Assembly: GCF_035594765.1 (NCBI RefSeq)
Contig: NC_085844.1
Coordinates: 194,448,107 to 194,512,106 of the forward strand
Length of the DNA: 64,000 nt
Direction of reading: 5' to 3'
DNA from: Anolis carolinensis
Taxonomy: Eukaryota
The position numbers were made by a program, and so were the translations under genes. This document shows, one piece after another, positions 27,701 through 59,688 of this stretch; positions within the stretch are counted from its first letter, which is position 1; each line of letters begins with the position of its first letter. The notes beneath the pieces were generated by a model, which worked only from the letters and a program-made list of their open reading frames with translations, was not told where the DNA came from and searched no databases.

Positions 27701-30011
27701 CCAAACAAAACACCATAGCATGCNNNNNNNNNNNNNNNNNNNNNNNNNNNNNNNNNNNNNNNNNNNNNNNNNNNNNNNNNNNNNNNNNNNNNNNNNNNNN
27801 NNNNNNNNNNNNNNNNNNNNNNNNNNNNNNNNNNNNNNNNNNNNNNNNNNNNNNNNNNNNNNNNNNNNTCCCCAGAGGGACTCGGGGCAGCTTACATACC
27901 AGTTGTATATGGAAATAATGGTAGTAACAAGAAATTCTTGACAGGAGTCACAGTTTGTCTGGTTTAGTTATGTTGGTTTGTGATGACAGCTACTGTACAG
28001 TATAGAATAAATGTTCATTTTTTTGTTCAACAATGAATATGAATTCTTTTTCATGGAAAAATAAGACATCCCCTGAAAATAAGACCTAGCGCATCTTTGG
28101 GAGTAAAAAATAATATAAGACACTGACTTATTTTCGGGGAAACACGGTAGTTTAGCAATGCACCAAGGTAATCACTGGTGTCTCTTCAAAGAGGCCTGGT
28201 GAATAATCAAAGAAATATATAGTGTAGATAGTTGTTCTAGGCCTTGGATCCTTTAATGTTTTACGTCTATTGAATATGCTTGAAGTGTAAAAGTCAAAAA
28301 ATGGATGGTTGGGATATAGTATCCCCAGAAAACAATCAGGACAAGAGCTATTCATTGACAATGGAAAATTCTCTTTTGTACTGCGATCTAATATTGTAGA
28401 TTCATGTGTCCGGTTTAAGTGGTAATCAAGGACTAAATGGGTTGTATGTTTTCCGGGCTGTATGGCCATGTTCCAGAAGTATTCTCTCCTGACATTTCGC
28501 CCACATCTATGGCAGGCATCCTCAGAGGTTGTGAGGTATACAACAAGCCTGTGATCCCTGCCATGAAAGCCTTTGACAACACAAGGACTAAATGGGCTGT
28601 ATCACAGCTTATCTTCAAATAAATGACCAGGTTCCAAAAACACATACATCATAGTGCCCAGATCAAAAGTAAAACATGTCATGTAAAGCATATTACCATT
28701 CTTAACTCAGATATTTGCAGAGAATTTCTGAGTTGCAGTGAATGGGGACCTATGAAGACATTAGACAGTATTTTTACCATCATTAGGGCTCTTTTACTGC
28801 TTTGTTTTCTTCCAAAAGATAGTTTTTCAAGCTGCTGATAGGTTGTATCATTTCCTCGTGTTGCACGTTATTTCTGTGTTGCCACTGATAACTAGATAAT
28901 TACCAGTATTTCTCCAATATTGCTCAGTTGAGATCATCACCAACCCCTGCCTTATTTGTGCTAGTATTCACATATTCCCTCAAGCTTTTCTGTAGAATTG
29001 ACAGGATCATACCATCATGGTCACCTTAAGAGTCCTTGTTAGCCTAACAAGGAAATCAACCTACTGGAGTTCTGGGCCACATACCTCTTATACTTGTTTT
29101 CCTTCAATGTTACCTTTGTCTGTGTTTTGCTTGCTCCTATTCCTCAGGTGCCGCTCCCTCCCGATAATCGCTGTTGTAACTGTCACACCTGTACTACACA
29201 CCGTCCCTCCTATCTGCCGCTGCAATCTGTTAGTCAAGGAGCTAAGGTCTTTACCCTTCTTGCAGTCACATGTCTCTAGTTATGAATGCTTTCTGTTACT
29301 CAAAAACTCGCCTTCAGACTATCTCATTCTTTTCCCCAAAGCTTTCCTGCTGGGTTTCCATTTGTTTTCTACATTTTAAGTTGGTTAATCAGATTTAGTC
29401 TTTCTTACATGACATTACATAAGAGTTAAAATCTCGCTTCAGTGACACATTTGCTGGATTTTGCTTTTTTCTATTAAATTAAATTTATCAGGAAAAGAGT
29501 TCTCTGACCTGAATAATAGGTCACACCAGATAAACCAGCTCTATTGCTCTGCTACTTTATGCTTCATTTATTTCCCTTTACTGAATGTTAGCAAACTGCA
29601 CCAAATTGCATCTTCAGTTTGTACTGATTTTTGCTTGTATACATTTTTATTTGCTCATATTCTGAAAGTTTCCATTACCTGGAACATTGGTTCATGTCTT
29701 TATGTTGACATTTTAGTGATTTACCTCTTCATCTGCACATCCTCTACTTAAGCATTTAAAAAAAAACAAAGAAGCTAAACATCTTGCTCCCAAAGCTGTT
29801 TTATCATTTTGAATAATACGCCCAGTTCTGCCTTCACATTTCCAGAGGAAGCAACTTGTCTGACCTGTTCTTTCCTTTCAATGTTTTTTAGTTGGAGCCC
29901 TCTGAAGTGGACCAAGACTCCCAGTCTCACGCCAGTGTGTCCTGGGTAGTGGAACCCAAGCAGGATTCCAAGAGGACCCTCAGCACTAAGTATGAGACTA
30001 CTATCTTCTGA
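15627..30011 (+). CDS. ANKS1A: ANKS1A (Odin), 5'-partial multi-exon CDS: join(15627..15725,17324..17473,17602..17709,20472..20630,23170..23295,24151..24222,24635..24721,25652..25789,[26398..26568],[29148..29246 cassette],29892..30011); SAM-SAM-PTB C-terminal half, about 442 aa
   Basis: Every exon has AG/GT boundaries and they join in frame. The translation matches my recall of mammalian ANKS1A, e.g. [57 protein letters not shown] and [24 protein letters not shown]. It lies tail-to-tail with TCP11, as in mammals. Confidence 0.96.
17324..17473 (+). CDS. ANKS1A: ANKS1A exon, SAM2 N-part ([50 protein letters not shown])
   Basis: gtctgcag| acceptor, aat|gtacgt donor, 150 nt; SAM motif WLxSLGLxxY. 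Confidence 0.96.
17602..17709 (+). CDS. ANKS1A: ANKS1A exon, SAM2 C-part ([36 protein letters not shown])
   Basis: ctcttcag| acceptor, agg|gtgagt donor, 108 nt; follows a 128-nt intron. Confidence 0.96.
20472..20630 (+). CDS. ANKS1A: ANKS1A linker exon ([53 protein letters not shown])
   Basis: attgcag| acceptor. The only open-frame donor is aag|gtatag at 20630/20631; the alternative GT at 20637 would include TAG. Confidence 0.88.
22900..23123 (+). mobile_element. L2-like 3' tail just upstream of the ANKS1A acceptor at 23170 (older L2 remnant near 22110-22570 on -)
   Basis: ggcattgaatgtttgcc...agtctcctcagggagatagggcggg plus (TAAA)n. Confidence 0.65.
23170..23295 (+). CDS. ANKS1A: ANKS1A exon leading into PTB ([42 protein letters not shown])
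   Basis: ttttcag| acceptor, aat|gtaagt donor, 126 nt. Confidence 0.96.
24151..24222 (+). CDS. ANKS1A: ANKS1A PTB exon ([24 protein letters not shown])
   Basis: cctgtcag| acceptor, agg|gtaagt donor, 72 nt; PTB YLGS motif. Confidence 0.97.
24635..24721 (+). CDS. ANKS1A: ANKS1A PTB exon ([29 protein letters not shown])
   Basis: Pyrimidine tract plus gaag| acceptor, aag|gtaaga donor, 87 nt. Confidence 0.95.
25652..25789 (+). CDS. ANKS1A: ANKS1A PTB exon ([46 protein letters not shown])
   Basis: tttggcag| acceptor, gtg|gtaaga donor, 138 nt. Confidence 0.97.
26398..26568 (+). CDS. ANKS1A: ANKS1A PTB C-terminal helix exon ([31 protein letters not shown]...[14 protein letters not shown])
   Basis: tttctcaag| acceptor, gca|gtatgt donor, 171 nt. 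Confidence 0.96.
26850..27020 (+). mobile_element. Old tRNA/CORE-type SINE fragment (related copies near 470-610 and 57290-57440 on -)
   Basis: atggtgtagtg head, tgaccttg...ctctcagcct core, aaaggcaaa...cctctgaat tail. Confidence 0.55.
27569..28147. mobile_element. pogo/Tigger-like non-autonomous DNA transposon spanning the assembly gap
   Basis: TA^ccctgtttccctgaaaataag ... cttattttcggggaaacacgg^TA; subterminal repeats aaaataagacatcccc / aagacctag. Confidence 0.85.
27724..27868. other. Assembly gap (145 N)
   Basis: Run of N. Confidence 1.
28442..28581 (-). mobile_element. Penelope-like pLTR fragment with an inverted terminal piece
   Basis: ggctgtatggccatgttccagaag...ggcatcctcagaggttgtgagg plus inverted ...gccatgaaagcctttgacaac; 15-bp TSD caaggactaaatggg at 28427-28441 and 28582-28596. 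Confidence 0.85.
28488..28528 (-). ncRNA. Minimal hammerhead ribozyme in Penelope pLTR (stem III variant GAAATGTC)
   Basis: Same fold as 37141-37181 with a single C>T change in the palindromic loop. Confidence 0.7.
29148..29246 (+). CDS. ANKS1A: ANKS1A probable cassette exon ([33 protein letters not shown])
   Basis: Strong pyrimidine tract ending tcctcag|, weak aag|gtcttt donor, 99 nt phase 0-0. Resembles a Cys/His-rich insert I recall from rodent Anks1a isoforms. Confidence 0.8.
29892..30011 (+). CDS. ANKS1A: ANKS1A terminal coding exon ([39 protein letters not shown]), with an internal alternative donor at 29989/29990
   Basis: ttttttag| acceptor; TGA at 30009-30011; internal AA|GTATGA donor. 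Confidence 0.92.
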
Positions 30012-34558: not shown

Positions 34559-35056
34559 AATGTTATTTGATCTGTCTTTGTATTTTGATACTTGAACTAT
34601 TTCCTTGTTATTTCCTGTATATAAAATTGTTTATCTGTCCATTTTTGTGGTACCAAACATAACCAATCTGTGCAACAACATAGACTGACCTCACTACGAC
34701 AAGGCGAGACTGTAAATATTCCTGGGCTTCCAGCAGTCGTTTTGTTGTTTGTTTTTCATAATTGTATGACTTAGAACAGACTAAATTAATAAAATTAGAC
34801 ATCTCTGTATGGGTTGCTGTGTTATGAGTATTAGTCTGTACTGTATATTATAGGAGGCTACAATTCTATGCATGCTTGCAAATATGTTTCATTAAAATCA
34901 GTCAAGTCTGCTTTCTAGGGTAATGCTTATAACATCAGGTTAGTCGTCGTATCATTCCCAGGTGAGAGAACACACATCAGCTGGTCTAAAAACACAGGAC
35001 AACATTTTGAGCTGTTCAAAGGTTTACTGCAGCAAACTTGGCATTGCCAGTTGGTA

Positions 35057-35062
35057 TTTATT
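35057..35062 (-). promoter_or_regulatory. TCP11: Candidate TCP11 polyadenylation signal
   Basis: TTTATT on + (AATAAA on -), about 170 nt after the stop codon. Confidence 0.55.
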
Positions 35063-35229
35063 TAACTGTACCCTGCAGCTTCTCTAGTCCAGCTGTACAA
35101 GTGCTTTGGATACAGAACAAGGCAGCTGCTCTGTTGATTACACTGGACTTGGAGCCAAAAGCACAGCCTGAGCAATTGCCAGTCTTCGCCCTCCTGCCAT
35201 CATGTGCTGTCCCTCATTTGAGATGGTTA

Positions 35230-35450
35230 TTAGGAAGCTGTCCCAGGCTTTCCCTCTGGAAGCAGCAGTTTCTTCAGGATTCCTGAATAGTATGGACCAA
35301 AAACCTGCCTGTTGTAATGAATCAAACTGCTGAACCGTTGGCCAACTTCCAGTAGTTCTTCCTGAATGGGAGCAAGTCCTTGGGGTAGAGTTGTAGAGTT
35401 TTTTCCACCATGACATAAACAGTGCTTAAGAAAGGTTTTGATCCGTTGTT
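35230..35450 (-). CDS. TCP11: TCP11 last coding exon ([17 protein letters not shown]...[29 protein letters not shown])
   Basis: cccacag| acceptor on -, TAA at 35232-35230. Confidence 0.94.
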
Positions 35451-38400
35451 CTGTGGGAATTAAGATAGCTTTGGAAACAAGCCTACGTCTGCAACTGTCC
35501 TTTCATTTTTTCACCCCCAGTTAGATAAACAGATAAATAGGATCATCAGCAGTGAAATGACAGGAAAAACATGTTTTAAGATCAGGTGGTTAATATTACC
35601 CCCCACAGGAAAAACCAGACAGACTTCAGCATATCCTCCCCTACAAGGTATCCACTCTGATTCTTAAAACCTGAAACCATGATACTGAGCTTCAACATGT
35701 CTTATGGGCAATTAACCTTTTCTTTAAAAAAAGCTCAGTACCAGAAAAGGAGTATCACACAATCCTCCAGAACAGGGTACCAAACTCACCCAATCAGCCT
35801 TACGGTTTCCCTAAAAAGTTGCCTGTAACCGGAGGGCTGTATAATGCAATGATGTTGCCCTGGCATTGAAAGCCTCGTGGGCCACATAAAATGATGTGGT
35901 GGGCTGAAGTCAGCCCATGGGCCTTGAGTTTGACACCTGTGCTCCAGAAGAATTGTAACTCCCAACAGTGAGAAGTACCGCAGGTTGCAATCCAATGTTA
36001 TCTGGAGATGTGTATGATTCCTATCCCTGCTTCATAACCTGGGTGGCATTTTTTTTTTACCACCAATGGTAACTTAGCTGGAGGCTGAAGGTAGATTTAT
36101 TATTTTACTTACATTTAGATGAGAATTGCACATGCCAGGCTATGTCTGCTGAATGCATATTCTGTCTTTTAATACTCTTTAAAATAAGTAATGATACTCA
36201 AAATGCCATTTCTGTTCTGATGAATATCATCATTCTTCTGCATATTTATAGTATCAATTGTGATTGTGTCCCTCTAAGGAAGGACCCTGTAGAGTAGCTC
36301 TCTACTCCAAATCAATCAACTGCAAATGATGCTTGTAATACATTCAATCAATATTTTTCTGCTCAAATAAGTTGTCTGCAGTGTCATTTTTCGTGCATGG
36401 ATACTTAAGCAGACAAAACTGGTATATTTCATGTATAATAGGCATCAGTTGGGTCAGGGGAACACTAGAGTTGAAGATTTTACAGAAAACTCCCAAAACA
36501 TTTATGAGGATTCATATGGAAAACTGTACATATGGAAATATTATCCTAGAAATAATTCTCTCCTGCAAATATTCTATTCTACTGTCTATTGAAGTACACA
36601 CAGAGGTGCATGTATATCAATACAAGAATAGACATAATGGTGTAGTTAGCTATGACTCGTAGTTTGGAGAGGCAATCTATGCTGAAATGGATCTACACTG
36701 GCTAATGAAACTCAAGTAAGAAATTACATTAAACTATGCAAACATAAATGACTCACCAATTAAAATCCGTACTGCATTGTCCTTATCTGCAAGGCTTCTG
36801 AGTTGGCCTTTCAGCAAAGTAGCCTTATCACCAGTAAGAACAGGGTACCCCAACTGGAGGAGTGTTTTGTTCACTTCCTGATGTATTTGGCCACTGATAT
36901 CCAATAAAGTGTCTTCTAACCTAAACCATTTATAAATGGGAGCACAGTCATGATTGTTAATTGAAACTCACATCAGGAAATACTCTAGAAGCATAAATAG
37001 TAAAGAAGAATCAACTGGATGTGCATATAAGGCTTGGAATAAGGGAATTGGCAATATGTTGTCGAAGGCTTTCATGGCCGGGATCACAGGGTTGTTGTAT
37101 GTCTTTCGGGCTGTGTGGCCATGTTCCAGAAGCATTCTCTCCTGACGTTTCGCCCACATCTATGGCAGGCATCCTCAGAGGTTGTGAGGTATGGAGAAAA
37201 CTAAGCAAAGAGGTTAATATATATCTGTGGAAAGTCTAGGGTGATAGAGGTCAGTATGAATGTTGTGTAGTTAATCACTTAAATTAGCATTGGCAATACT
37301 TTCTCCCTCATCTAAATCAGAAGCTGTATGCACAGTTTTAACTATTTCAGTTAATACATACTCCTATTCACCCTTCTACCTTACAACATACAATTTATGG
37401 TTGTCCCAGCTAAAATCATTACATTAATTATTATACCTGTTTTTGTCCCAATATTTGGACTAATGGTGGCTTTGAAATTATTTAAACCTGTAAACATCAT
37501 TAATCAATAATAGCACATAGCATGTCCAATTTAAAAACAGTTGAGCTAAGTATAGAGTAAAACAACACAAAATCCATTAAAATCTATATATATAAAAGAG
37601 TGATGGCATCACGGCGACCCACAAAACAACAAAACGACAGGCCCCCCAACCTCGACATTTGACAACACAACCCATCATCCACAGCTCTAGGTTGATACAA
37701 CAAAAAGAAAAGAAAAATAAAGTCCTAATTAGAGAGAGAGAAATAATTGCTTTTATCCAATTGCTGTCAGTTAGAAGGCTAAGCTCCTCCAACTTGGTCT
37801 CCTAGCAACCCAATAAAAAATAATAAAAAACACTAAAAAATAATTAAAAACACTAAAAAATTAATACAATAAAATACTATAATAGAAAATAACTAAAAAT
37901 AATACAAGAAAATAATAAAATATAATAAATAAAAAGATAACTTACAATAAAATTAATTAAAAAAATACAAATAACATCAAATAAAAATTACACAACAATT
38001 TTTAACCAATACCACCACCACTTTGCCACAGCAACGCGTGGCTGGGCACAGCTAGTGTATTATAAAGTGAATATGACCTCTTAAATGTCAAAATGTGTAT
38101 AGCTGCATTCCATAGGCAACATGAAATGAGGGTAATTAGAGAACATTCTGATCAGGAAAGGAAAATCACAGCAGCATTTGAATTGGCCTGTTATGAATCC
38201 AAGCCTCCAGCAAGATTGCAAAGTGCATCAGACTAAAGGAAAGATTGCCTGCCTTAGAAAATATTTATTTATTCCACCCTTAACAGAAAAGAAACATTGA
38301 AAGCCATTTCCAAAGGATACTTTATATATATAAAAATGTAATGTTCGTTTGTAGGACGGAGTAAACAACAAAATGACTGGGCCAAATCACACCAAATTTG

Positions 38401-41400
38401 ACCACAAAACCTACCAACCCAATGAGTGACCAACACTAATAAAAACACATAAAAACACAGCGCCAAGGACTTTAAAATCTTTCCCCGTCACCCTACAAAC
38501 CCCAGAAAGTGCAAAGAAGACTTTTCAACAGCCCATGGCGCAAGGCCCTCTGGGAGCCATAGTTCGGCCGCAGACATTCCATTGGCAATGGAGTGGTGGG
38601 AGGCTTCCACTGCACGTGCACGAGGAGAAGTCCAGTGGAGGGAGAGAGAGCATGCGCCCGCACCGTTTACGTGTGCGCGTGCGTAGTCACCTCCTTGGAT
38701 TATCCCTCGCAAGAAATCGACCAGGCAATAGGTAACTTTGCTTCTCCCTGCAGCTGGTTAAAGATGGAGCCACTGGATCGGGGCCTCCTCCTCTGGTGGA
38801 GTTTCTCCTCACGGCGCCGCACTGCCCCAAAGGCCTGGTTCTTTCCCTCAGAAAGACCGGGCCTCAAAAGGGGGGCGAGGGGACAGGGGGCGGGGCACAG
38901 GCATCCTGGCTCTGCCTCCTTAGATCTAGAGCCATTGTAATTTGAAGTTCAAGCTCCGTAAACTTTCAAGTGTACAGTCGGCCCACTGATTCTCATCCCT
39001 GGCCAGGTCCCACTTGGGGAGGCGGTCCGGGTTGGGAACCAGAGCTAGGTGGGAGGGATTCTGTGTGTATGTGTGTGTATGCACACATACACACACATAT
39101 CTGTAGACATAACACAAACAAACACACCTTTATATTCACACAAATACTTGTACATCTGAAAGATCCACGGTGGGAGAAAGAACTCTTTTCTAATTGAGCC
39201 CAGGGGGAATCCTTAGCTGGCAAGCTTGAATAGCACTGAATAGCCTTGCAGCATCAAAACCTGACTGCTCCCTACTGAGGGGAATCCTATGTGGACCACC
39301 TTCAATAGCACTGAATAGCCTTGCAGCATCACAACCTGGCTGCCTCCTGCCAAGAGGAATCTTTTGTTGGCCAACTAGAATAGCACAGAGCAATCTTGCA
39401 TCATCAAGGCCTGGCTGCTTCCTACCTAGGGGAATTATTTGTTGCCCAGCTTGAATACCATTGAATAGCCTTGCAGCTTCAAAGCCTGGCTGCTTTGAAG
39501 CTGCAAGGCTATTCACTGCTATTCCACCTGGCCAACAAAGAATTTCCATAAGCCACAGCAACACGTGGCCAGGCACAGCTAGTTAACTATAATTAGAAAA
39601 CAATCACACTTTTAAAAAGAGCTAAAACTCAAAATATGCTATCTTTTCAAAAATACACTGTCATAAAATAGGAAGATAATCTGTTAAAACTAACTCAGTG
39701 CAATGGCTCTTCACTGAAAAAAACCTTAAAAATTCAGACAAAACTAATGTCTTGAAACCTTTTTAAAGAATTCATCTTGTTCTGTGACCTGTAAACTTTC
39801 AATGTGACAAGATATGGTAAATAGTTTAGAAATGTCTTAGATGTTGTTGCAGAATCTAGCCTTGCAAATATTTGGTGATGGCACATTCATAACATGTGAC
39901 ACCTATATTGTATCAACTGTATAAACTGCACTATGTGCTTTCACTATATCCCAAAGGGAGCAGATTTCTAAACACTGGCTGAACATTATCCAAACTTGCC
40001 TTTTACAGCATGGCTCCGTCCTACCACCTTCACACTACCATTTTTCAATAAGGCATTGATCTTCTCCAAGGTTCAAACCAGAACTAGCTATGAACAATTT
40101 TAGAAGTCTGAGACCATGTGGTAGATTTCTGTCCTAAAAACAGTTTTATCTAAAATGTTCTGTAAACTGGTCACCATGGGCCTTTAAATGTTCTAGCTGT
40201 TATTTCTGAAGAGGTATTTAAGTAGCTGAAAGGATTCCTCTGAGTGACATAAAGCAGAAATAATGGAGAACAGAGGAAACATATCCTTACCACTGTCACT
40301 GCCAGAGTAAGATCACAAACAGATCCTTACTTGTGTTCAGCTACATTTATTAGAAGTCTATCTTTAAGATGTAATTTAGTGTACTCTAATCTTCAACTCT
40401 ATTTTATTGCCCTCAGCTCCTCAGAATATCAATCACTTTGTATAGTTGGGCCAAGGATATTTTCAAGTGATTATATCCATGTTCTGGTTCATGTTATCCT
40501 AGGAATAAAGTAAGATGTTGGCAGGACCAGATTAAGCATCTTACCTTGCACCAGGAGCTCCTAGCAGAGCTTTTGTTATCTGTTTCAACCTATCTCCACA
40601 ACCTGCTGAGCCAAACACCCCATTTCCACATGTGCTGTTGCTCACTAATAGAACTGCAGCAATAATAGCTAGCTGATTCACTTCCTTCTGAAGAGCATGC
40701 AAACGATCTTTATCCATCATCATAGTCTGTAAATAAAGAACAGTATAATATTGTGCAGAAATTTCTAAAACTTGAGATTTATATCTTTAATGGATATGAA
40801 CAAATAAGCTAAAACTGTGATAAATTCCTTGCTGCCTAAAACTAGAATGACCACGAAGCAGATTGGATGAGGGTGGAGACATGGATTATTTTATATTATT
40901 TTATATTTTAGATATGCTGCTTAGATCAAGATAAGTTCCTACAATGTGCGCTCTTAGGGATTTTTTTTCTCCCTTTTGTTTCTGGGGCACTGCGAAAAAC
41001 ACCCCTTACCTCAGGATATTGTTCTTTTCCAGGATCCCAATGCAGCAAATCCATGTATGCTTGGTTTAGCACAGCTGTAGGGCTATGGATAAGCAGGACT
41101 TCTCCAGTAACTGCAGGGGAAGTAGGTGCAGGCGCACTGATCTCAGAGGTGGATGAAGAGGATTGTAAATCAGAAGATACTTCAGCTGCTGCCGTCTGCA
41201 GCCACTCAGTTGTAACCACCAGGCCAGCTGGAATGTGATACCAGAGAAAGTTTTGGAACAACTTTTGCCTGCATGCAAGAGTTTTATTTCTTGTTTTTAC
41301 TTTTACCATTATTGCTCCCTCCTGAAGAATCAGGCAACTTTTGATTATGACACTTTTGCAGCAAGGGAATCAAATGAGAAATATGTTTAATTTAGTATCC

Positions 41401-44604: not shown

Positions 44605-47600
44605 CTTCATAATTTTATGCCTGCATGATGGCACAACTACGCCACTATACTGCTCTAAAGCTGGAATTCTTGTTGACACTTCCATATCAAGTAAGCATTT
44701 TTAAAAATTTGGGAGGAATTTTTTTAAAAACTCCTTCTTTATTAGGAGAGGGAGTGTGGGAGAGCTGAGTAATCCCACCTCCTGATGTCACTCCTATGCT
44801 TGCGTGCTAGTGCTGAAGTGCCTGGAACCATTGACATTCAACATTACACAAATTAAAACACCATTTTAAACAATAATATAATGGCAAATAGAACTGCCAA
44901 ATAAAAACAATACCATGGTTAAAATAGCAAAAGTCTGGGCAGTGGCGCGAGGAGTGCATGATTAAAACCTGATGAGATAGATAGAAGTGCTGTAGTATAA
45001 GAGGGGAATTCTGGGTAGGATAAATGAGGAAAGTAATTACCAAATAAGAGCAAGAAGACAGTATGTCAAGCCCGGTAATAGTCAATACTGAGGAGGTTAT
45101 TCTTGTGATCAGTTGTTGTAAGCACATTGGAGGAGCCAGGTTTTGAAGTCTTTCTTAAAGGCTGCCAGGGTGGGTGTTCCAGACTCGAGGGGCCAACACG
45201 GAGAAGACCCTCTCCCTCGTCCCCACAAGCTGCGCTTGCGATGGGGGTGGGAGTGAGAGAAGGGCCTCCTTGATATTCTGCCTTGATATTCTGGGTTATA
45301 TGGCTGTGTGGGAGGACCCTGGGTTGTCTAAATCTACATTGCCATATACAGTAGAGTCTCACTTATCCAACATTCTGGATTATCCAATGCATTTTTGTAG
45401 TCAATGTTTTCAATACATCGTGATATTTTGATGCTAAATTCATAAATACAGTAATTGCTACATAGCATTACTGCGTATTGAACTACTTTTTCTGTCAAAT
45501 TTGTTGTATAACATGATGTTTTCATTTTAATTTGTAAAATCATAACCTAATTTAATGTTTAATAGGCTTTTCCTTAATCTCTCCTTATTATCCAACATAT
45601 TCGCTTATCCAATGTTCTGCCGGCCCGTTTACGTTGGATAAGCGAGACTCTACTGTATTACAATTCAAGGCAGATAATGTCTGTTATTCTGCTTTAATAT
45701 TCTGGGTTATATATATGGGTTATCTGAGTCCACACTGACATATGTAGGCAGGAAATTCCACAATATCTGCTTTGAACTGGGTTATGTGAGTCCACACTGC
45801 CATATATTCCAGTTCAAAGAAGATAATGTCGGATTTCTTGCCTTGATATTCTGGGTTATATGGCTGTGTGGAAGGCCCTCAAGGCCCTTTCTACACTGCC
45901 ATATAATCCAGATTATCAATTCAGATGACCCACATATTTATTTATTTATTTAATAAATTTATATCCCTCCCTTCTCACCCCAAAGGGGATTCAGAGCGGT
46001 TTACAAATTAAATTTACATACAATATGATATTATTAGCATAGCACAATACAGGTAATAAATTACCATATTGTACTATATCTATATATTGTAATATTATTA
46101 ATAACATTACATGTAATATATAATATATAATTAATATTATTATATTGTATTACTAGTATTATATTGTATTATAAAATAATATTATTAATATTATATGCAT
46201 ATACGATATATTATAATATTATATATTATTGTAAATTATATTGTATATATGTATATATGTGTATATGTATGTGTGTATACAGACATAAAAATATATATAC
46301 ACACATCTACATATCTATACATATATAAAAGGGTAATGAAATTTCGGCCTAGGACAAAACAACAAAACTACACATCCAAGAAACACTAAATTTGGCAGCA
46401 CAACCCCTCATCCATGCCTCTACGTTCATACAACAAAAAGAAAAGAAAAATAAAGTCCTAATTAGAGGGAGAGGAACAATTGTTTTTATCCAATTGCTGA
46501 CAGTTAGAAGGCTAAGCTCCACCCACTTGTTCTTCTAGCAACCCACTCAGCCCAGGGGACAGGCAGAGTTAGGCCTCACTTAGGCCTCTTCCACACTGCC
46601 TATAAAATACAGATTATCAGATTTGAACTGGATTATATGGCAGTGTAGACTCAAGGCCCTTCCACACAGCTATATTACCCATTTATAATCTTATATTATC
46701 TGCTTTGAACTGGATTATCTTGACTCCACACTGCCATATAATCCACTTCAGTGTGCATTTTATACAGCTGTGTAGATGGGGCCTCATATAATCCAGTTCT
46801 AAGCAGATAATATAAGATTATAAATATACAGTACAGTCTCACTTATCCAACATAAACAGGCCAGCAGAACGTTGGATAAGTGAATGTGTTAGATAATAAG
46901 AAGGGATTCAGAAAAAGCCGATTAAACATCAAATTAGGTAATCATTATACAAACTAAGCACCAAAACATCATGTTATACAACAAATTTGACAGAAAAAGT
47001 AGTTCAATACGCAGTAATGCTATGTAGTAATTACTGTATTTACAAATTTACCACCAAAATATCACAATGAATTTAAAACACTGACTACAAAAAGACTGAC
47101 TACTAAAAGGCAGATTGCGTTGGATAATCCAGGACACTGGATAAGCAAATGTTGGATAAGTGAGATTCTACTATAATAAGAAATAATTACTGTGGTAGAA
47201 TAATGCAGAACAATATAATTTCTAAAAGCCGGACAGTAAATAAAGAGCAACACTCTGAAAGCAGGGAAATTGGGAATTCCACAAAGGAAACAATCAGGGC
47301 CAGCTAACACCTCCCAAAAAAGGATTCTTCCAGAAAGGAAGCTGAGAAGGAAGTGAAGCAGTGTGTATTACCAAAGTCATTATTATTACTATTATTATTA
47401 TTGACACAACGATGTTGTATGACACAGCAAACAAGATAGACATGCTGGATTTCGTTTCACAAAACCACAAGTCAAACACTTCCCAAGTGTCTAGGACTGT
47501 GTGATGTATTTTCGGATGATGCGTGCAGATCCCAGCAGGGTGGCCTTTTGCAGTTGGCAGATCGTAATTTTGTCAATGTCTATTGTTTCCAAATGCTGGC

Positions 47601-48224
47601 ACGGCACCCAATGTGCCCATCACCACCGGGACCACCTGTACTGGTTTCTGCCAGAGTCTTTGAAGTTCAATCTTGAGGTCCTGATAGCGGCTGAGTTTTT
47701 CCTGTTGTTTTTCATCAATGCGACTGTCACCTGGGATGGCGACATCAATTATCCAAACCTTTTTCTTTTCCACAACTGTGATGTCTGGTGTGTTGTGTTC
47801 CAGAACTTTGTCAGTCTGGATTCGGAAGTCCCACAGTATCTTTGCGTGTTCATTTTCCACGACCTTTGCTGGTTTGTGATCCCACCAGTTCTTTGCTGCT
47901 GGCAGGTGGTACTTGATGCATAAGTTCCAATGGATCATTTGGGCCACACAGTTGTGCCTCTGTTTGTAGTCTGTCTGTGCAATTTTCTTACAGCAGCTGA
48001 GGAGATGATCAATGGTTTCGTCAGCTTCCTTGCACAGTCTGCATTTTGGGTCATCAGCTGATTTTTCAATCTTGGCCTTAATTGCATTTGTTCTGATGGC
48101 TTGCTCCTGGGCTGCAAGGATCAGGCCTTCTGTCTCCTTCTTCAGGGTCCCATTCGTGAGCCAGAGCCAGGTCTTCTCCTTGTCAGCTTTTCCTTCAATT
48201 TTGTCAAGGAATTACTATTATTAC

Positions 48225-48267
<43 letters not shown>

Positions 48268-51200
48268 GTGCTGCTGTGAACCGTGAAAATTAATACAATC
48301 TGGGTCCAAGTATTCAAAAACACCAAAATCAGAATATATAAAAATTACTGTGGTATAATAAAACAAAACAATACAATCTCTAAAATCAAAACACAAAATA
48401 AAGAACAACACTCTGAAAACAGGGGAATTCCACACAAGAAACAATCAGGGCCAGCTAACACATCCCAACAAAGTATTCCCATCACCAAAGTCTGGTAAAT
48501 CCTCTGTTTTCTGAGGGCCACAGACAGTAGAAGCACATAAAATATCGCAAAGAACACCACTCTGAAAACAAGGGAATTCCAGGAACCAGGAAACAATCAG
48601 GGTCAGCTAACACCTCCCAACAAAAAATTCACTCAGGGAGGAAACAGCTAGGCTTTAAAGCTGCAAGGCCATTACATGCTAATCATTTTCCTAATTGTAG
48701 CATTCATACTTGCCTCCAACAGACCAAAAAAAAAATCAGAAATATTGTATATTCACAAGCTTTAGAAAATAATATCCCCTGATGGCGCAGCGTATTAAAG
48801 CGCTGAGCTGCTGAACTTCTAGACTGAAAGGTTGCAGGTTTGAATTGGGGGAGCAGAGAGAGCCCCCACTGTTAGCCCCACCTTCTGCCAACCCTAAAGT
48901 TCAAAAACATGCAAATGAGAGTAGATCAATAGGTACTGCTCCGGCAGGAAGGTAACGGCGCTCCATGCAGTCATGCCACATGACCTTGGAGGAGTCTACA
49001 GACAACGCCAGCTATTCGGTTTAGAAATGGAGATGAGCACCAACCCCCAGAGTCAGACACGACTGGACTTAACGTTTACCCTTTACCTTAACTACCACCA
49101 ATTCCTCAATACTTTATTTCCCATATCACCATACTTCACCACAGCAACGCGTGGCCAGGCACAGCTAGTATACATATAATTAGCAAAGCATATCTGCTTT
49201 GAACTGGATTATCTGCGGGCCCTTTCACAGAGTCACATAACCCAGAATGTCAAGGTAGAAAATCCCACAATATCTGCTTCGAACTGGGTTATTTGAGTCC
49301 ATACTGCCATATATTCCAGTTCAAAGCAAATAATGTGGGATTTTATTCAGCTGTGTGGCGGGGGTGGGGGTGGGTGGGTGGGTCTACACTGCCATATAAT
49401 CCGGTTCAAGGTATTATATGGCTATGGAATCCAGGGAGCTGTAGTTTCCCAAGGCCTTTAGCCTTCTCTGCCAAGGAAGGGTGCTGGTGCCTCACCAAAC
49501 AGGTGTGTGCCTCGAATAGACAAATACATGTACAGGAAGGAGAGAGGCCCTGCTTCCCAAAAAAGGCTCAACTTTCAGCCTGCCCACCCGCCTCCCTCCC
49601 TGCTTCCCATTCGCTTTCACCTCTCATTCTCGTTGCAACCTGGGCGTTTCTGCGGCCCGCACGGCTTAGCCCCGCCCACCACATCGCACGGCTCCGCCCA
49701 CCATGTCGCGTGACGTGGTGGGCGGGGCCAAGCCGTGCGGGTTGCATGGCGGCCAAGGAAAGGCCCAGGTCGCAGCGAGAAGGACCAGACTGCGGCGGGA
49801 AGGATCTTCCCGCCACGGCCTGGCACTTCTCGCTGAGACCTGGGCCTTGCTGCGGCTGCCATGCGGCCTGCACGACTTGGCCCCGCCCACGCCCCGCGGC
49901 ATGGTGGGCAGAGCTGTGTGGCGTTGTTCTTCCCGCCGCAACCTGGGCCTTTCTGCGGCCCGCACGGCTTAGCCCCGCCCACCACATCGCGCGGCTCCAC
50001 CCACCACGTCGCGTGACGTGGTGGGCGGGGCCAAGCCGTGTGGGTTGCATGGCGGCCAAGGAAAGGCCCAGGTCGCAGCGAGAAGGACCAGACTGCAGCG
50101 GGAAGGATCTTCCCGCCACGGCCTGGCACTTCTCACTGAGACCTGGGCCTTGCTGCGGCTGCCATGCGGCCTGCACGGCTTGGCCCCGCCCACGCCCCGC
50201 GGCATGGTGGGCAGAGCTGTGTGGCATTGTTCTTCCCGCCGCAGCCTGGGCCTTGCTGCCATGGGGCCTGCGAGGCACCGGGAAGGACCAGGCCACGGCA
50301 GGAATGACCAGCCCCAAGCCGAAGGAGGCGGGGGGTGGCGCCATCATCCCGGGGGGCTCGAGGGCGCCCCAGGACGATGGTGCCACAGGCAAATGCCTCC
50401 CTCGCCTGGCGGGTGGACCGCCTCTGGCGGCAGCACCGGGCGCTAAATTTACACGGGGGCGCTGCTCTCTCATTCTTGCTAGTGTTGATTTTGTGGCCCT
50501 TTTGAAATGTAATGCTAAAACCATACTAATACTATATGCACTAGCAGAAATGAGCTTCCGCTCTTCCAACATCCCCCTTCCTTCTGCGATAAAGTCAAGA
50601 AGAAACCATAGATTTTCACTTCCTTTACCCAGCAAGATCAAGTAATATGAATTGTACATAACTAGGATAACAAGATGGTTAATCTTGCATTGGAATAGTT
50701 TTAGCAAAGATTGTACTGCTTCTATAGAATTACCTTTGTCCAAGCCAATGGTGCCCACCTGAGCAGATGAACTGGATCTGTCATGACTCGCAGTCTCTGT
50801 ATTTCTTCATCTCGGACAGGGGCACAGAGCATAGCCATTGTACCTAGGATATATGTGGTGAGGTTAGCAATGTCCAAAGCTCCATGCTCAGCCTCTTGTT
50901 TTATCAACTCCATATCGAGAGCGTCTTCAATTTGACTTTTCAAACGGGTCTGCCGGGGCAGAAGCAAGGTCAGCAGGATCTACACAACAAGAAAGTGTAT
51001 TTGTTTGTACATACAAACCTTCAAATTAATTTTTAATCTTTGATTTTCAAAACATGCACAATTGTTTCAGATATCACAGAAGTTATGGGGGATGAATTTC
51101 ATTTCACTCTTTACCAGTCTAGTCTGATTTTACACGACTAAACAGAGAAAATAACTCTCTGGGGCCAACCATATTTATACTCTTATTCCAGACATTGTTT

Positions 51201-59294: not shown

Positions 59295-59688
59295 TTGTCA
59301 AAAGCTTTCATGGCCGGAATCACTGGGTTGCTGTGAGTTTTCTGGGCTGTATGGCCATGTTCCAGAAACATTCTCCACAAGCTTGTGGATTTCAGTGGCT
59401 TCTCTGTGTAGTCTGACATGGTGGTTATTATAGTGGTCCAGCATTTCTGTGTTCTCAAATAATATGCGGTGTCCAAGTTGGTTCATCAAGTGCTCTGCTA
59501 TGGCTGACTTCACTGGTCGTCTACAGTGCCTTTCATGTTCCTTGATTCATGTTTGGGCAGTGCTGTGTTTGGCGGCCCCTATGTAGACTTGTCCACAGCT
59601 GCATGGTATTTGGTAGGACTCCTGCAGAGGTCAAGAGAGAATGCTTCTGGAATATGGCCATACAGCCAGGAAAACTCACAGCATCTCA
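59295..59688 (-). mobile_element. Penelope-like element fragment with GIY-YIG endonuclease remnant
   Basis: Minus-strand translation YQIPCSCGQVYIG...KEHERH...KSAIAEHLMN...HREATEI; inverted pLTR pieces at both ends; 12-bp TSD gttatgaatgcc (59283-59294 and 59689-59700). Confidence 0.88.

What the first reader, a model, noticed from the sequence alone, without database searches (positions are those of the whole stretch)
37141..37181. Intact minimal hammerhead ribozyme in the sense direction of a TCP11 intron
Seen: on the minus (TCP11 sense) strand, cct-CUGAGGA-u-gccugc[cauagau]gugggc-GAAA-cg-UC^-agg. This is the full hammerhead core with stem I (cct/agg), a 6-bp stem II and only a palindromic ACGU where stem III should be. 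It sits in a Penelope pLTR insertion with a 10-bp TSD, about 220 nt upstream of the acceptor of the penultimate coding exon (36920). Established: Penelope-like elements carry such minimal hammerheads, which cleave efficiently mainly as dimers. Inference: TCP11 pre-mRNA could be cut co-transcriptionally, alone or after pairing in trans with other Penelope RNAs, coupling germline TE expression to TCP11 splicing or stability.
Basis: partly seen in the sequence, partly recalled or inferred. Interest (0 to 1): 0.7.

Follow-up and report, generated by a model that had tools for sequence, protein, structure and literature searches.

The report
Common anole Penelope stub with ribozyme
This self-cutting-RNA motif is one of more than 12,000 identical copies spread by a known jumping gene of the green anole; this copy landed in a TCP11 intron and is likely a silent passenger, so the finding is ordinary.

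Summary
37141-37181(-) is an intact minimal type I hammerhead, in the sense direction of the intron before TCP11 coding exon 8 of 9, with the cut site 223 nt from the acceptor. It lies in a 240-bp retroelement stub flanked by a 10-bp duplication. The stub is a 5'-truncated copy of PAc (Poseidon, Penelope-like) of Anolis carolinensis: 87 of 87 bases after the cut site equal the PAc RNA printed in PMC11167929. The 41-mer occurs 12,566 times exactly in this genome. In 1.78 Mb of six other genes, sense and antisense copies are equal: 24 vs 25 in all, 10 vs 9 core-intact. The copy is intact because it is young. PMC11167929 tested this ribozyme: no cleavage without PAc protein, and no RNA-seq ends at the site. 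This stub stops near +120, short of the +172 that their insertion assay needed, and the core is predicted to be hidden in a competing hairpin. A regulatory cut of TCP11 pre-mRNA is unsupported; no RNA data for this locus could be examined. The scan has found this element before on other DNA.

The parts
37141..37181 (-). Minimal type I hammerhead of PAc: stem I CCU/AGG, core CUGAGGA, bulged U, 6-bp stem II, GAAA, palindromic ACGU, predicted cut between 37144 and 37143
   Evidence: Sequence; descriptor vs shuffles; cut site 26 nt after the ATG, as stated for PAc in PMC11167929
37053..37292 (-). 240-bp 5'-truncated PAc stub (about -120 to +120 around the element's start codon): pLTR, hammerhead, first 40 codons and tail; no RT or endonuclease
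   Evidence: Boundaries from 29 other genomic copies; 87 of 87 bases 37143-37057 equal the PAc RNA in Suppl. Fig. 1 of PMC11167929 (compared by eye)
37170..37172 (-). PAc start codon: A9, the bulged U and G10.1 of the ribozyme
   Evidence: [quoted passage not shown]
37053..37088 (-). PLE 'tail' between the two preferred 3' ends; the outer end lies at or just beyond the reverse-transcription start region (+111 to +118)
   Evidence: Of 51 alignments, 28 end at 37052-37054 and 12 at 37087-37089 (the query favoured tailed copies); PMC11167929
37289..37298 (-). Upstream copy of the 10-bp target duplication; its last 4 letters also fit the element's 5' end
37047..37056 (-). Downstream copy of the 10-bp target duplication; its ATTG also fits the element's 3' end and holds the ATT motif that PAc prefers to cut
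37173..37189 (-). Predicted competing hairpin: 37189-37185 pairs with core bases U4-G8 (37177-37173)
   Evidence: Pair probabilities 0.82-0.98 in 4 of 4 sequence contexts at 37 and 30 C; prediction only
37225..37255 (-). Predicted splice-acceptor-like signal brought by the pLTR (branch-like CUGAC 26 nt before a CAG ending at 37225)
   Evidence: Heuristic scan; use untested
36921..40544 (-). Host intron of TCP11 (3,624 nt) between coding exons 7 and 8
36755..36920 (-). TCP11 coding exon 8 of 9 (penultimate)
   Evidence: translation

Best explanation
This is the hammerhead motif of a young, truncated copy of the anole retroelement PAc that inserted into a TCP11 intron, and it is likely a silent passenger that is spliced out uncut with the intron. 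Shown: element identity, boundaries, copy number, orientation balance in control genes, youth. Inferred origin: PAc protein nicked the AT-rich target at an ATT, began reverse transcription at the element's internal start near +118, copied about 240 nt and rejoined through a 4-letter microhomology, leaving the 10-bp duplication. Inferred silence: the monomer has no helix III, its core is predicted to be paired off, cleavage needs PAc protein, and the stub lacks +121 to +172 of the RNA that PAc needed for insertion in vitro.
For: 12,566 exact and 45,319 near (<=2 mismatches) copies, strand-balanced, 0 in the reversed control. Six control genes, 1,782,029 bases: sense vs antisense 24 vs 25 (<=6 mismatches), 4 vs 4 exact, 10 vs 9 core-intact, 7 vs 6 intact and solitary; 13 vs 13 by descriptor. 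Changes among these 49 copies pile up at the two CpGs whether catalytic or not: C11.1 19, G12 8, C15.2 10, G16.2 10; every other position <=7. This copy differs from its nearest fetched copy at 1 of 236 bases and has 1 letter shared by none of 14 full-length comparators. PMC11167929: no cleavage without protein, no RNA-seq reads starting or ending at the site. Folding: stem I probability <=0.003 in 5 of 5 contexts; the drawn trans-dimer is 11-26 kcal/mol above two folded monomers.
Against: The orientation test is small (95% interval for the sense share of intact copies 0.29-0.76), so a moderate bias is not excluded. The control genes hold fewer near-exact copies than the genome average (28 vs 43.6 expected, P=0.008), though in both orientations (13 vs 15). 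G12A was rarer in sense (2 of 24) than antisense copies (6 of 25), not significant at this size. Both junctions stand on unbroken contigs in 4 of 4 runs from 4 studies, so the insertion may be fixed or common; drift can do this, but it does not argue for harm either. Folding models ignore tertiary contacts and protein help. A Xenopus retrozyme preprint reports intron avoidance by a related class. No RNA evidence at this locus.
Confidence: 0.86

Rival explanations
1. PAc protein made in the germline binds this stub in nascent TCP11 RNA, refolds the ribozyme (alone or as a dimer through ACGU) and cuts the intron before splicing, lowering TCP11 output.
For: The core is intact and the stub is identical to PAc downstream of the cut. 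PAc's ribozyme does cut in vitro with its protein. An intronic ribozyme can lower host mRNA (Cpeb3, passages of PMC10919898). The RT-start stem-loop that may bind the protein is present.
Against: The assay used 500 nM protein and RNA for 2 h on a -126/+235 RNA; this stub ends near +120. No RNA-seq ends at the site. Polymerase passes the exon 389 nt after the cut, seconds at the rate implied in PMC10919898, where 9.9 kb matched a 2-3 min half-life. No loss of sense intact copies in control genes.
Confidence: 0.04
2. The stub affects TCP11 through splice or promoter signals rather than through the ribozyme. Its acceptor-like site at 37225 would compete with the real acceptor, adding 304 nt out of frame and predicted to trigger decay.
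For: The 37225 site has pyrimidine share 0.71, CAG and a branch-like motif at -26, against 0.59 and TAG at the real acceptor. PLE pLTRs carry a promoter and a 5'-UTR intron (passages of PMC8557442).
Against: The scan is a crude heuristic. The only GT(A/G)AG donor downstream (36971) would leave a 51-nt intron. Sense copies are not depleted in control genes. No RNA was examined.
Confidence: 0.06
3. Antisense PAc transcripts or small RNAs pair with the stub in TCP11 pre-mRNA and cause editing or silencing; such pairing would destroy the ribozyme fold rather than complete it.
For: A full antisense duplex is far more stable than the folded stub (-480 vs -42 kcal/mol). Inverted copies are common among the 29 fetched loci. 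Germline small-RNA silencing of retroelements is general knowledge (recalled).
Against: It would apply equally to thousands of introns. There is no locus-specific evidence.
Confidence: 0.04

Closest known systems
PAc (Poseidon of Anolis carolinensis) and its hammerhead, Frangieh et al. 2024, PMC11167929
   Same: 87 of 87 bases after the cut site are identical; ORF starts at stem II; cut 26 nt after the ATG; 3' end close to the RT start region; ATT at the target.
   Different: A solitary 240-bp stub without RT or endonuclease, no tandem partner, ending near +120; it sits in a host intron.
Minimal hammerheads (min-HHR) of metazoan Penelope-like elements, Cervera and de la Pena 2014, PMC4209133
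   Same: No helix III, base between 9 and 10.1, G10.1-C11.1 pair, palindromic 15.2-16.2, location in the pLTR, mostly solitary copies spread over the genome.
   Different: Stem I is 3 bp and stem II 6 bp, shorter than the 4-5 and 7-8 bp given for the Schistosoma families.
Conserved intronic ribozymes with host function (CPEB3 HDV-like ribozyme, PMC10919898)
   Same: Sense-strand self-cleaving motif inside an intron of a protein-coding gene.
   Different: CPEB3's ribozyme self-cleaves alone with a 2-3 min half-life 9.9 kb from the next exon, with a measured effect. This motif is a young high-copy repeat of another ribozyme class, needs protein, and lies 223 nt from the acceptor.

Membership tests
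Metazoan PLE min-HHR (type I hammerhead) | Core CUGANGA ... GAAA ... UH with closing stem I and stem II | tested here: met
Metazoan PLE min-HHR (type I hammerhead) | Extra base between 9 and 10.1; G10.1-C11.1; palindromic 15.2-16.2; no helix III | tested here: met
   U37171; G37170-C37152; ACGU 37148-37145; features listed in PMC4209133
Metazoan PLE min-HHR (type I hammerhead) | Self-cleavage after C17 (as dimer or with protein) | not testable with these tools
   Published for PAc RNA -126/+235 with protein only; not shown for this stub
Rfam hammerhead families | Covariance-model match | tested here: not met
   0 hammerhead families among 11 matches at E<=10 in 35000-40000
PAc / Poseidon Penelope-like element | Sequence identity to PAc RNA | tested here: met
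   87 of 87 bases; the full .gbk consensus could not be read
PAc / Poseidon Penelope-like element | pLTR with hammerhead and 30-40-bp tail; interspersed high copy number; 5' truncation | tested here: met
PAc / Poseidon Penelope-like element | RT plus GIY-YIG ORF (autonomous copy) | tested here: not met
   Only 40 codons are present; this is a non-autonomous stub
Non-LTR retrozymes | Tandem head-to-tail units carrying hammerheads | tested here: not met
   Single unit; no second copy in 36000-38500; the next hammerhead copy is 8.6 kb away, in ANKS1A
Domesticated intronic ribozymes (CPEB3-like role) | Conservation at the orthologous site across species and a measured effect on host mRNA | not testable with these tools
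   No relative genomes are held; youth makes deep conservation unlikely

The most novel reading that the evidence does not exclude
Because the PAc ribozyme is switched on by PAc protein, the thousands of intact sense-strand stubs in anole introns, this TCP11 copy among them, form a transposon-protein-triggered cleavage network. Germline derepression of PAc would then cut host pre-mRNAs in trans and lower sperm-gene output.
Probability: 0.04. Interest if true: 0.7.

Novelty: already known. Interest (0 to 1): 0.1.

Why it matters
As it stands it matters little: it is one more copy of a studied element. It shows that 'intact, sense, near an exon' is expected thousands of times in this genome and is no sign of function. 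If PAc protein did trigger cuts at intronic stubs in vivo, a retroelement protein would control host RNA through scattered ribozymes. That would be new, and a uniquely anchored copy like this one would be a convenient place to test it.

Tried and rejected
Rfam scan: no hammerhead family. Whole-motif folding z-scores are unremarkable, -0.22 to -1.55. ANKS1A alone held only 2 copies in 190 kb, too few as a control; one of them is too degenerate for the 6-mismatch scan and is not among the 49. Run search: no RNA holder listed, which is no evidence either way. No empty-site contig among the pieces shown for 4 runs; that output was cut and contigs drop rare variants. RNA junctions and further individuals were not examined. 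The first index set for the competing hairpin was wrong and was corrected. The 2-mismatch listing showed only exact matches, so per-position decay came from fetched DNA instead. Motif search in the PMC11167929 supplements found nothing as running text; Suppl. Fig. 2 is a picture and gave no content; the .gbk file is unreadable. A search for 'TCP11' with 'hammerhead' found 0 papers. Rejected: chance motif; retrozyme array; special protection of the core; a hammerhead partner in cis within the same intron.

Full report
1. Observation. On the minus strand it reads CCU, CUGAGGA, U, a 6-bp stem II with two G-U pairs and a 7-nt loop, GAAA, CG, UC, AGG, with the predicted cut between 37144 and 37143. 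A minimal-hammerhead descriptor finds 2 sites in the 64-kb window and 1 in 200 shuffles, so it is not chance. Rfam does not see it: none of 11 matches at E<=10 is a hammerhead. The host gene is TCP11. The exon at 36755-36920 matches named lizard TCP11 proteins (14 hits, best 96%) and is the 8th of 9 coding exons. Two paralogues lie on other contigs, and ANKS1A is the tail-to-tail neighbour. The cut site is 223 nt from the acceptor and 389 nt from the exon's end.

2. What it is. Comparison with 29 other genomic copies bounds the insertion at 37292-37053. In 14 of them the element continues further 5', so this copy is 5'-truncated. A 10-bp direct repeat flanks it, with 4 letters at each junction fitting both element and target. 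The 87 bases from the cut site to 37057 are identical to the PAc RNA printed in Supplementary Fig. 1 of PMC11167929 (compared by eye). The start codon overlaps A9, the bulged U and G10.1, and the cut lies 26 nt after it, as that paper states. The stub spans about -120 to +120 and ends close to the paper's reverse-transcription start region. The genome is thus read as green anole (inference).

3. How common. The 41-mer occurs exactly 12,566 times (6,339 forward, 6,227 reverse; reversed control 0) and 45,319 times within two mismatches. To ask whether sense intronic copies are special, I fetched parts of six genes of known direction: three vinculin-family, two glypican-family, and ANKS1A, 1,782,029 bases in all. 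An earlier scan note (e1-10287508) suggested this kind of control. All 49 copies within 6 mismatches were counted. Sense vs antisense: 24 vs 25 in all, 4 vs 4 exact, 10 vs 9 core-intact, 7 vs 6 intact and solitary. The sample is small (sense share of intact copies 0.29-0.76). These genes also hold fewer near-exact copies than the genome mean (28 vs 43.6, P=0.008), but in both directions (13 vs 15). Four exact sense copies in 1.78 Mb imply on the order of a thousand or more sense intronic copies genome-wide (estimate; intron share assumed). Changes concentrate at the two CpGs, including catalytic G12 (8 of 49), as neutral decay would give. This copy is 1 base of 236 from its nearest fetched relative, so it is intact because it is young. 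Both junctions lie on unbroken contigs in 4 of 4 runs from 4 studies: the insertion is real and widespread, and no empty allele was shown in the cut output.

4. Mechanism. Origin (inferred from PMC11167929 and the junctions): nick at an ATT in AT-rich DNA, internal start of reverse transcription near +118, early termination joined by microhomology, 10-bp duplication. Present state (inferred): silent. PMC4209133 found a metazoan minimal monomer inactive and its multimers weak. PMC11167929 found the PAc ribozyme inactive without protein, dispensable for insertion, and without RNA-seq ends at the site. Its assay used a -126/+235 RNA with 500 nM protein for 2 h, and insertion needed the first 172 nt of the ORF, which this stub lacks in part. 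Folding predicts stem II (0.73-0.97) but not stem I (<=0.003), with core bases U4-G8 paired to 37189-37185 (0.82-0.98). The drawn trans-dimer is 11-26 kcal/mol uphill. These models ignore tertiary contacts and protein. On timing, passages of PMC10919898 tie an intronic ribozyme's effect to a 2-3 min half-life and 9.9 kb of remaining intron, and say slow ribozymes had no effect (citing Fong et al. 2009, which I did not read). Here polymerase finishes the next exon within seconds, although splicing itself may take longer (own knowledge).

5. Rivals. Protein-assisted cleavage of TCP11 pre-mRNA, 0.04. Splice or promoter interference from the pLTR's acceptor-like site at 37225, 0.06 (heuristic). 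Antisense or small-RNA targeting, 0.04. None has locus-level support, and none was excluded by RNA data: no RNA holder was listed and RNA junctions were not examined. One point against plain neutrality is a preprint reporting intron avoidance by Xenopus retrozymes, a related tandem class (passages).

6. Known versus new. It works like, and is, the PAc minimal hammerhead. It is a non-autonomous stub, not a retrozyme array and not shown to be a domesticated intronic ribozyme. The link to TCP11 was not found in print in one search (TCP11 + hammerhead, 0 papers), but a single copy among thousands is no discovery. Earlier scan notes describe the same element in this genome and in other lizards; they are unreviewed and are not counted as support.

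7. Sources seen. PMC4209133: parts 1-2 of 4 of the text (abstract, results, discussion, start of methods); supplements not read. PMC11167929: passages and part 2 of the main text, text of supplements 1-3; figures and the .gbk file not seen, and they could refine the pLTR boundary and the predicted folds. PMC10919898, PMC8557442 and bioRxiv 10.64898/2026.07.22.740005: passages only; the preprint's supplements are closed. Others: search listings only.

8. Verdict. Real feature, already known kind and family, likely inert at this site. Interest 0.10.

Noticed in passing
window 28427-28596 (-): A second PAc stub with a descriptor-positive hammerhead (core at 28525; C15.2 changed to U), preceded by an inverted tail piece and flanked by a 14-15-bp duplication. 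It lies antisense in an ANKS1A intron.
   Followed up: partly
window 59295-59546 and 59630-59683: An older Penelope-like remnant upstream of TCP11's first coding exon: a short frame that looks like the end of a GIY-YIG domain (label recalled), joined to a tail without the hammerhead, plus an inverted piece.
   Followed up: partly
window 37187-37199, from contigs: Many copies diverge from this one just upstream of 37190-37192. One common variant reads as a pyrimidine run ending in AG right before the hammerhead's 5' leader, which suggests a subfamily whose pLTR intron ends there, as described for D. virilis in PMC4209133.
   Followed up: no
window 37580-37790 and 38363-38419: A second, unrelated high-copy repeat in the same intron (very high summed depth; 70% direct repeat), next to an AT-rich low-complexity run at 37790-37990.
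   Followed up: no
window 47573-48211 (-): A 212-aa open frame with a CxxC...H...C motif and an endonuclease-like tail, resembling the C-terminus of a non-LTR retrotransposon (resemblance recalled), inside a TCP11 intron.
   Followed up: no
window 49203-50645: A GC-rich, internally repeated stretch with long open frames on both strands inside a TCP11 intron.
   Followed up: no
L004:337-980; G000:C1 near 1,063,400 and 2,664,500: Short head-to-tail arrays of the pLTR unit (about 220 or 173 bp) exist elsewhere. These, not solitary stubs, are where cis dimers could form.
   Followed up: no
window 36921-36945 (-): The real acceptor of TCP11 exon 8 has a weak pyrimidine tract (share 0.59) and a second TAG 5 nt downstream.
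   Followed up: no
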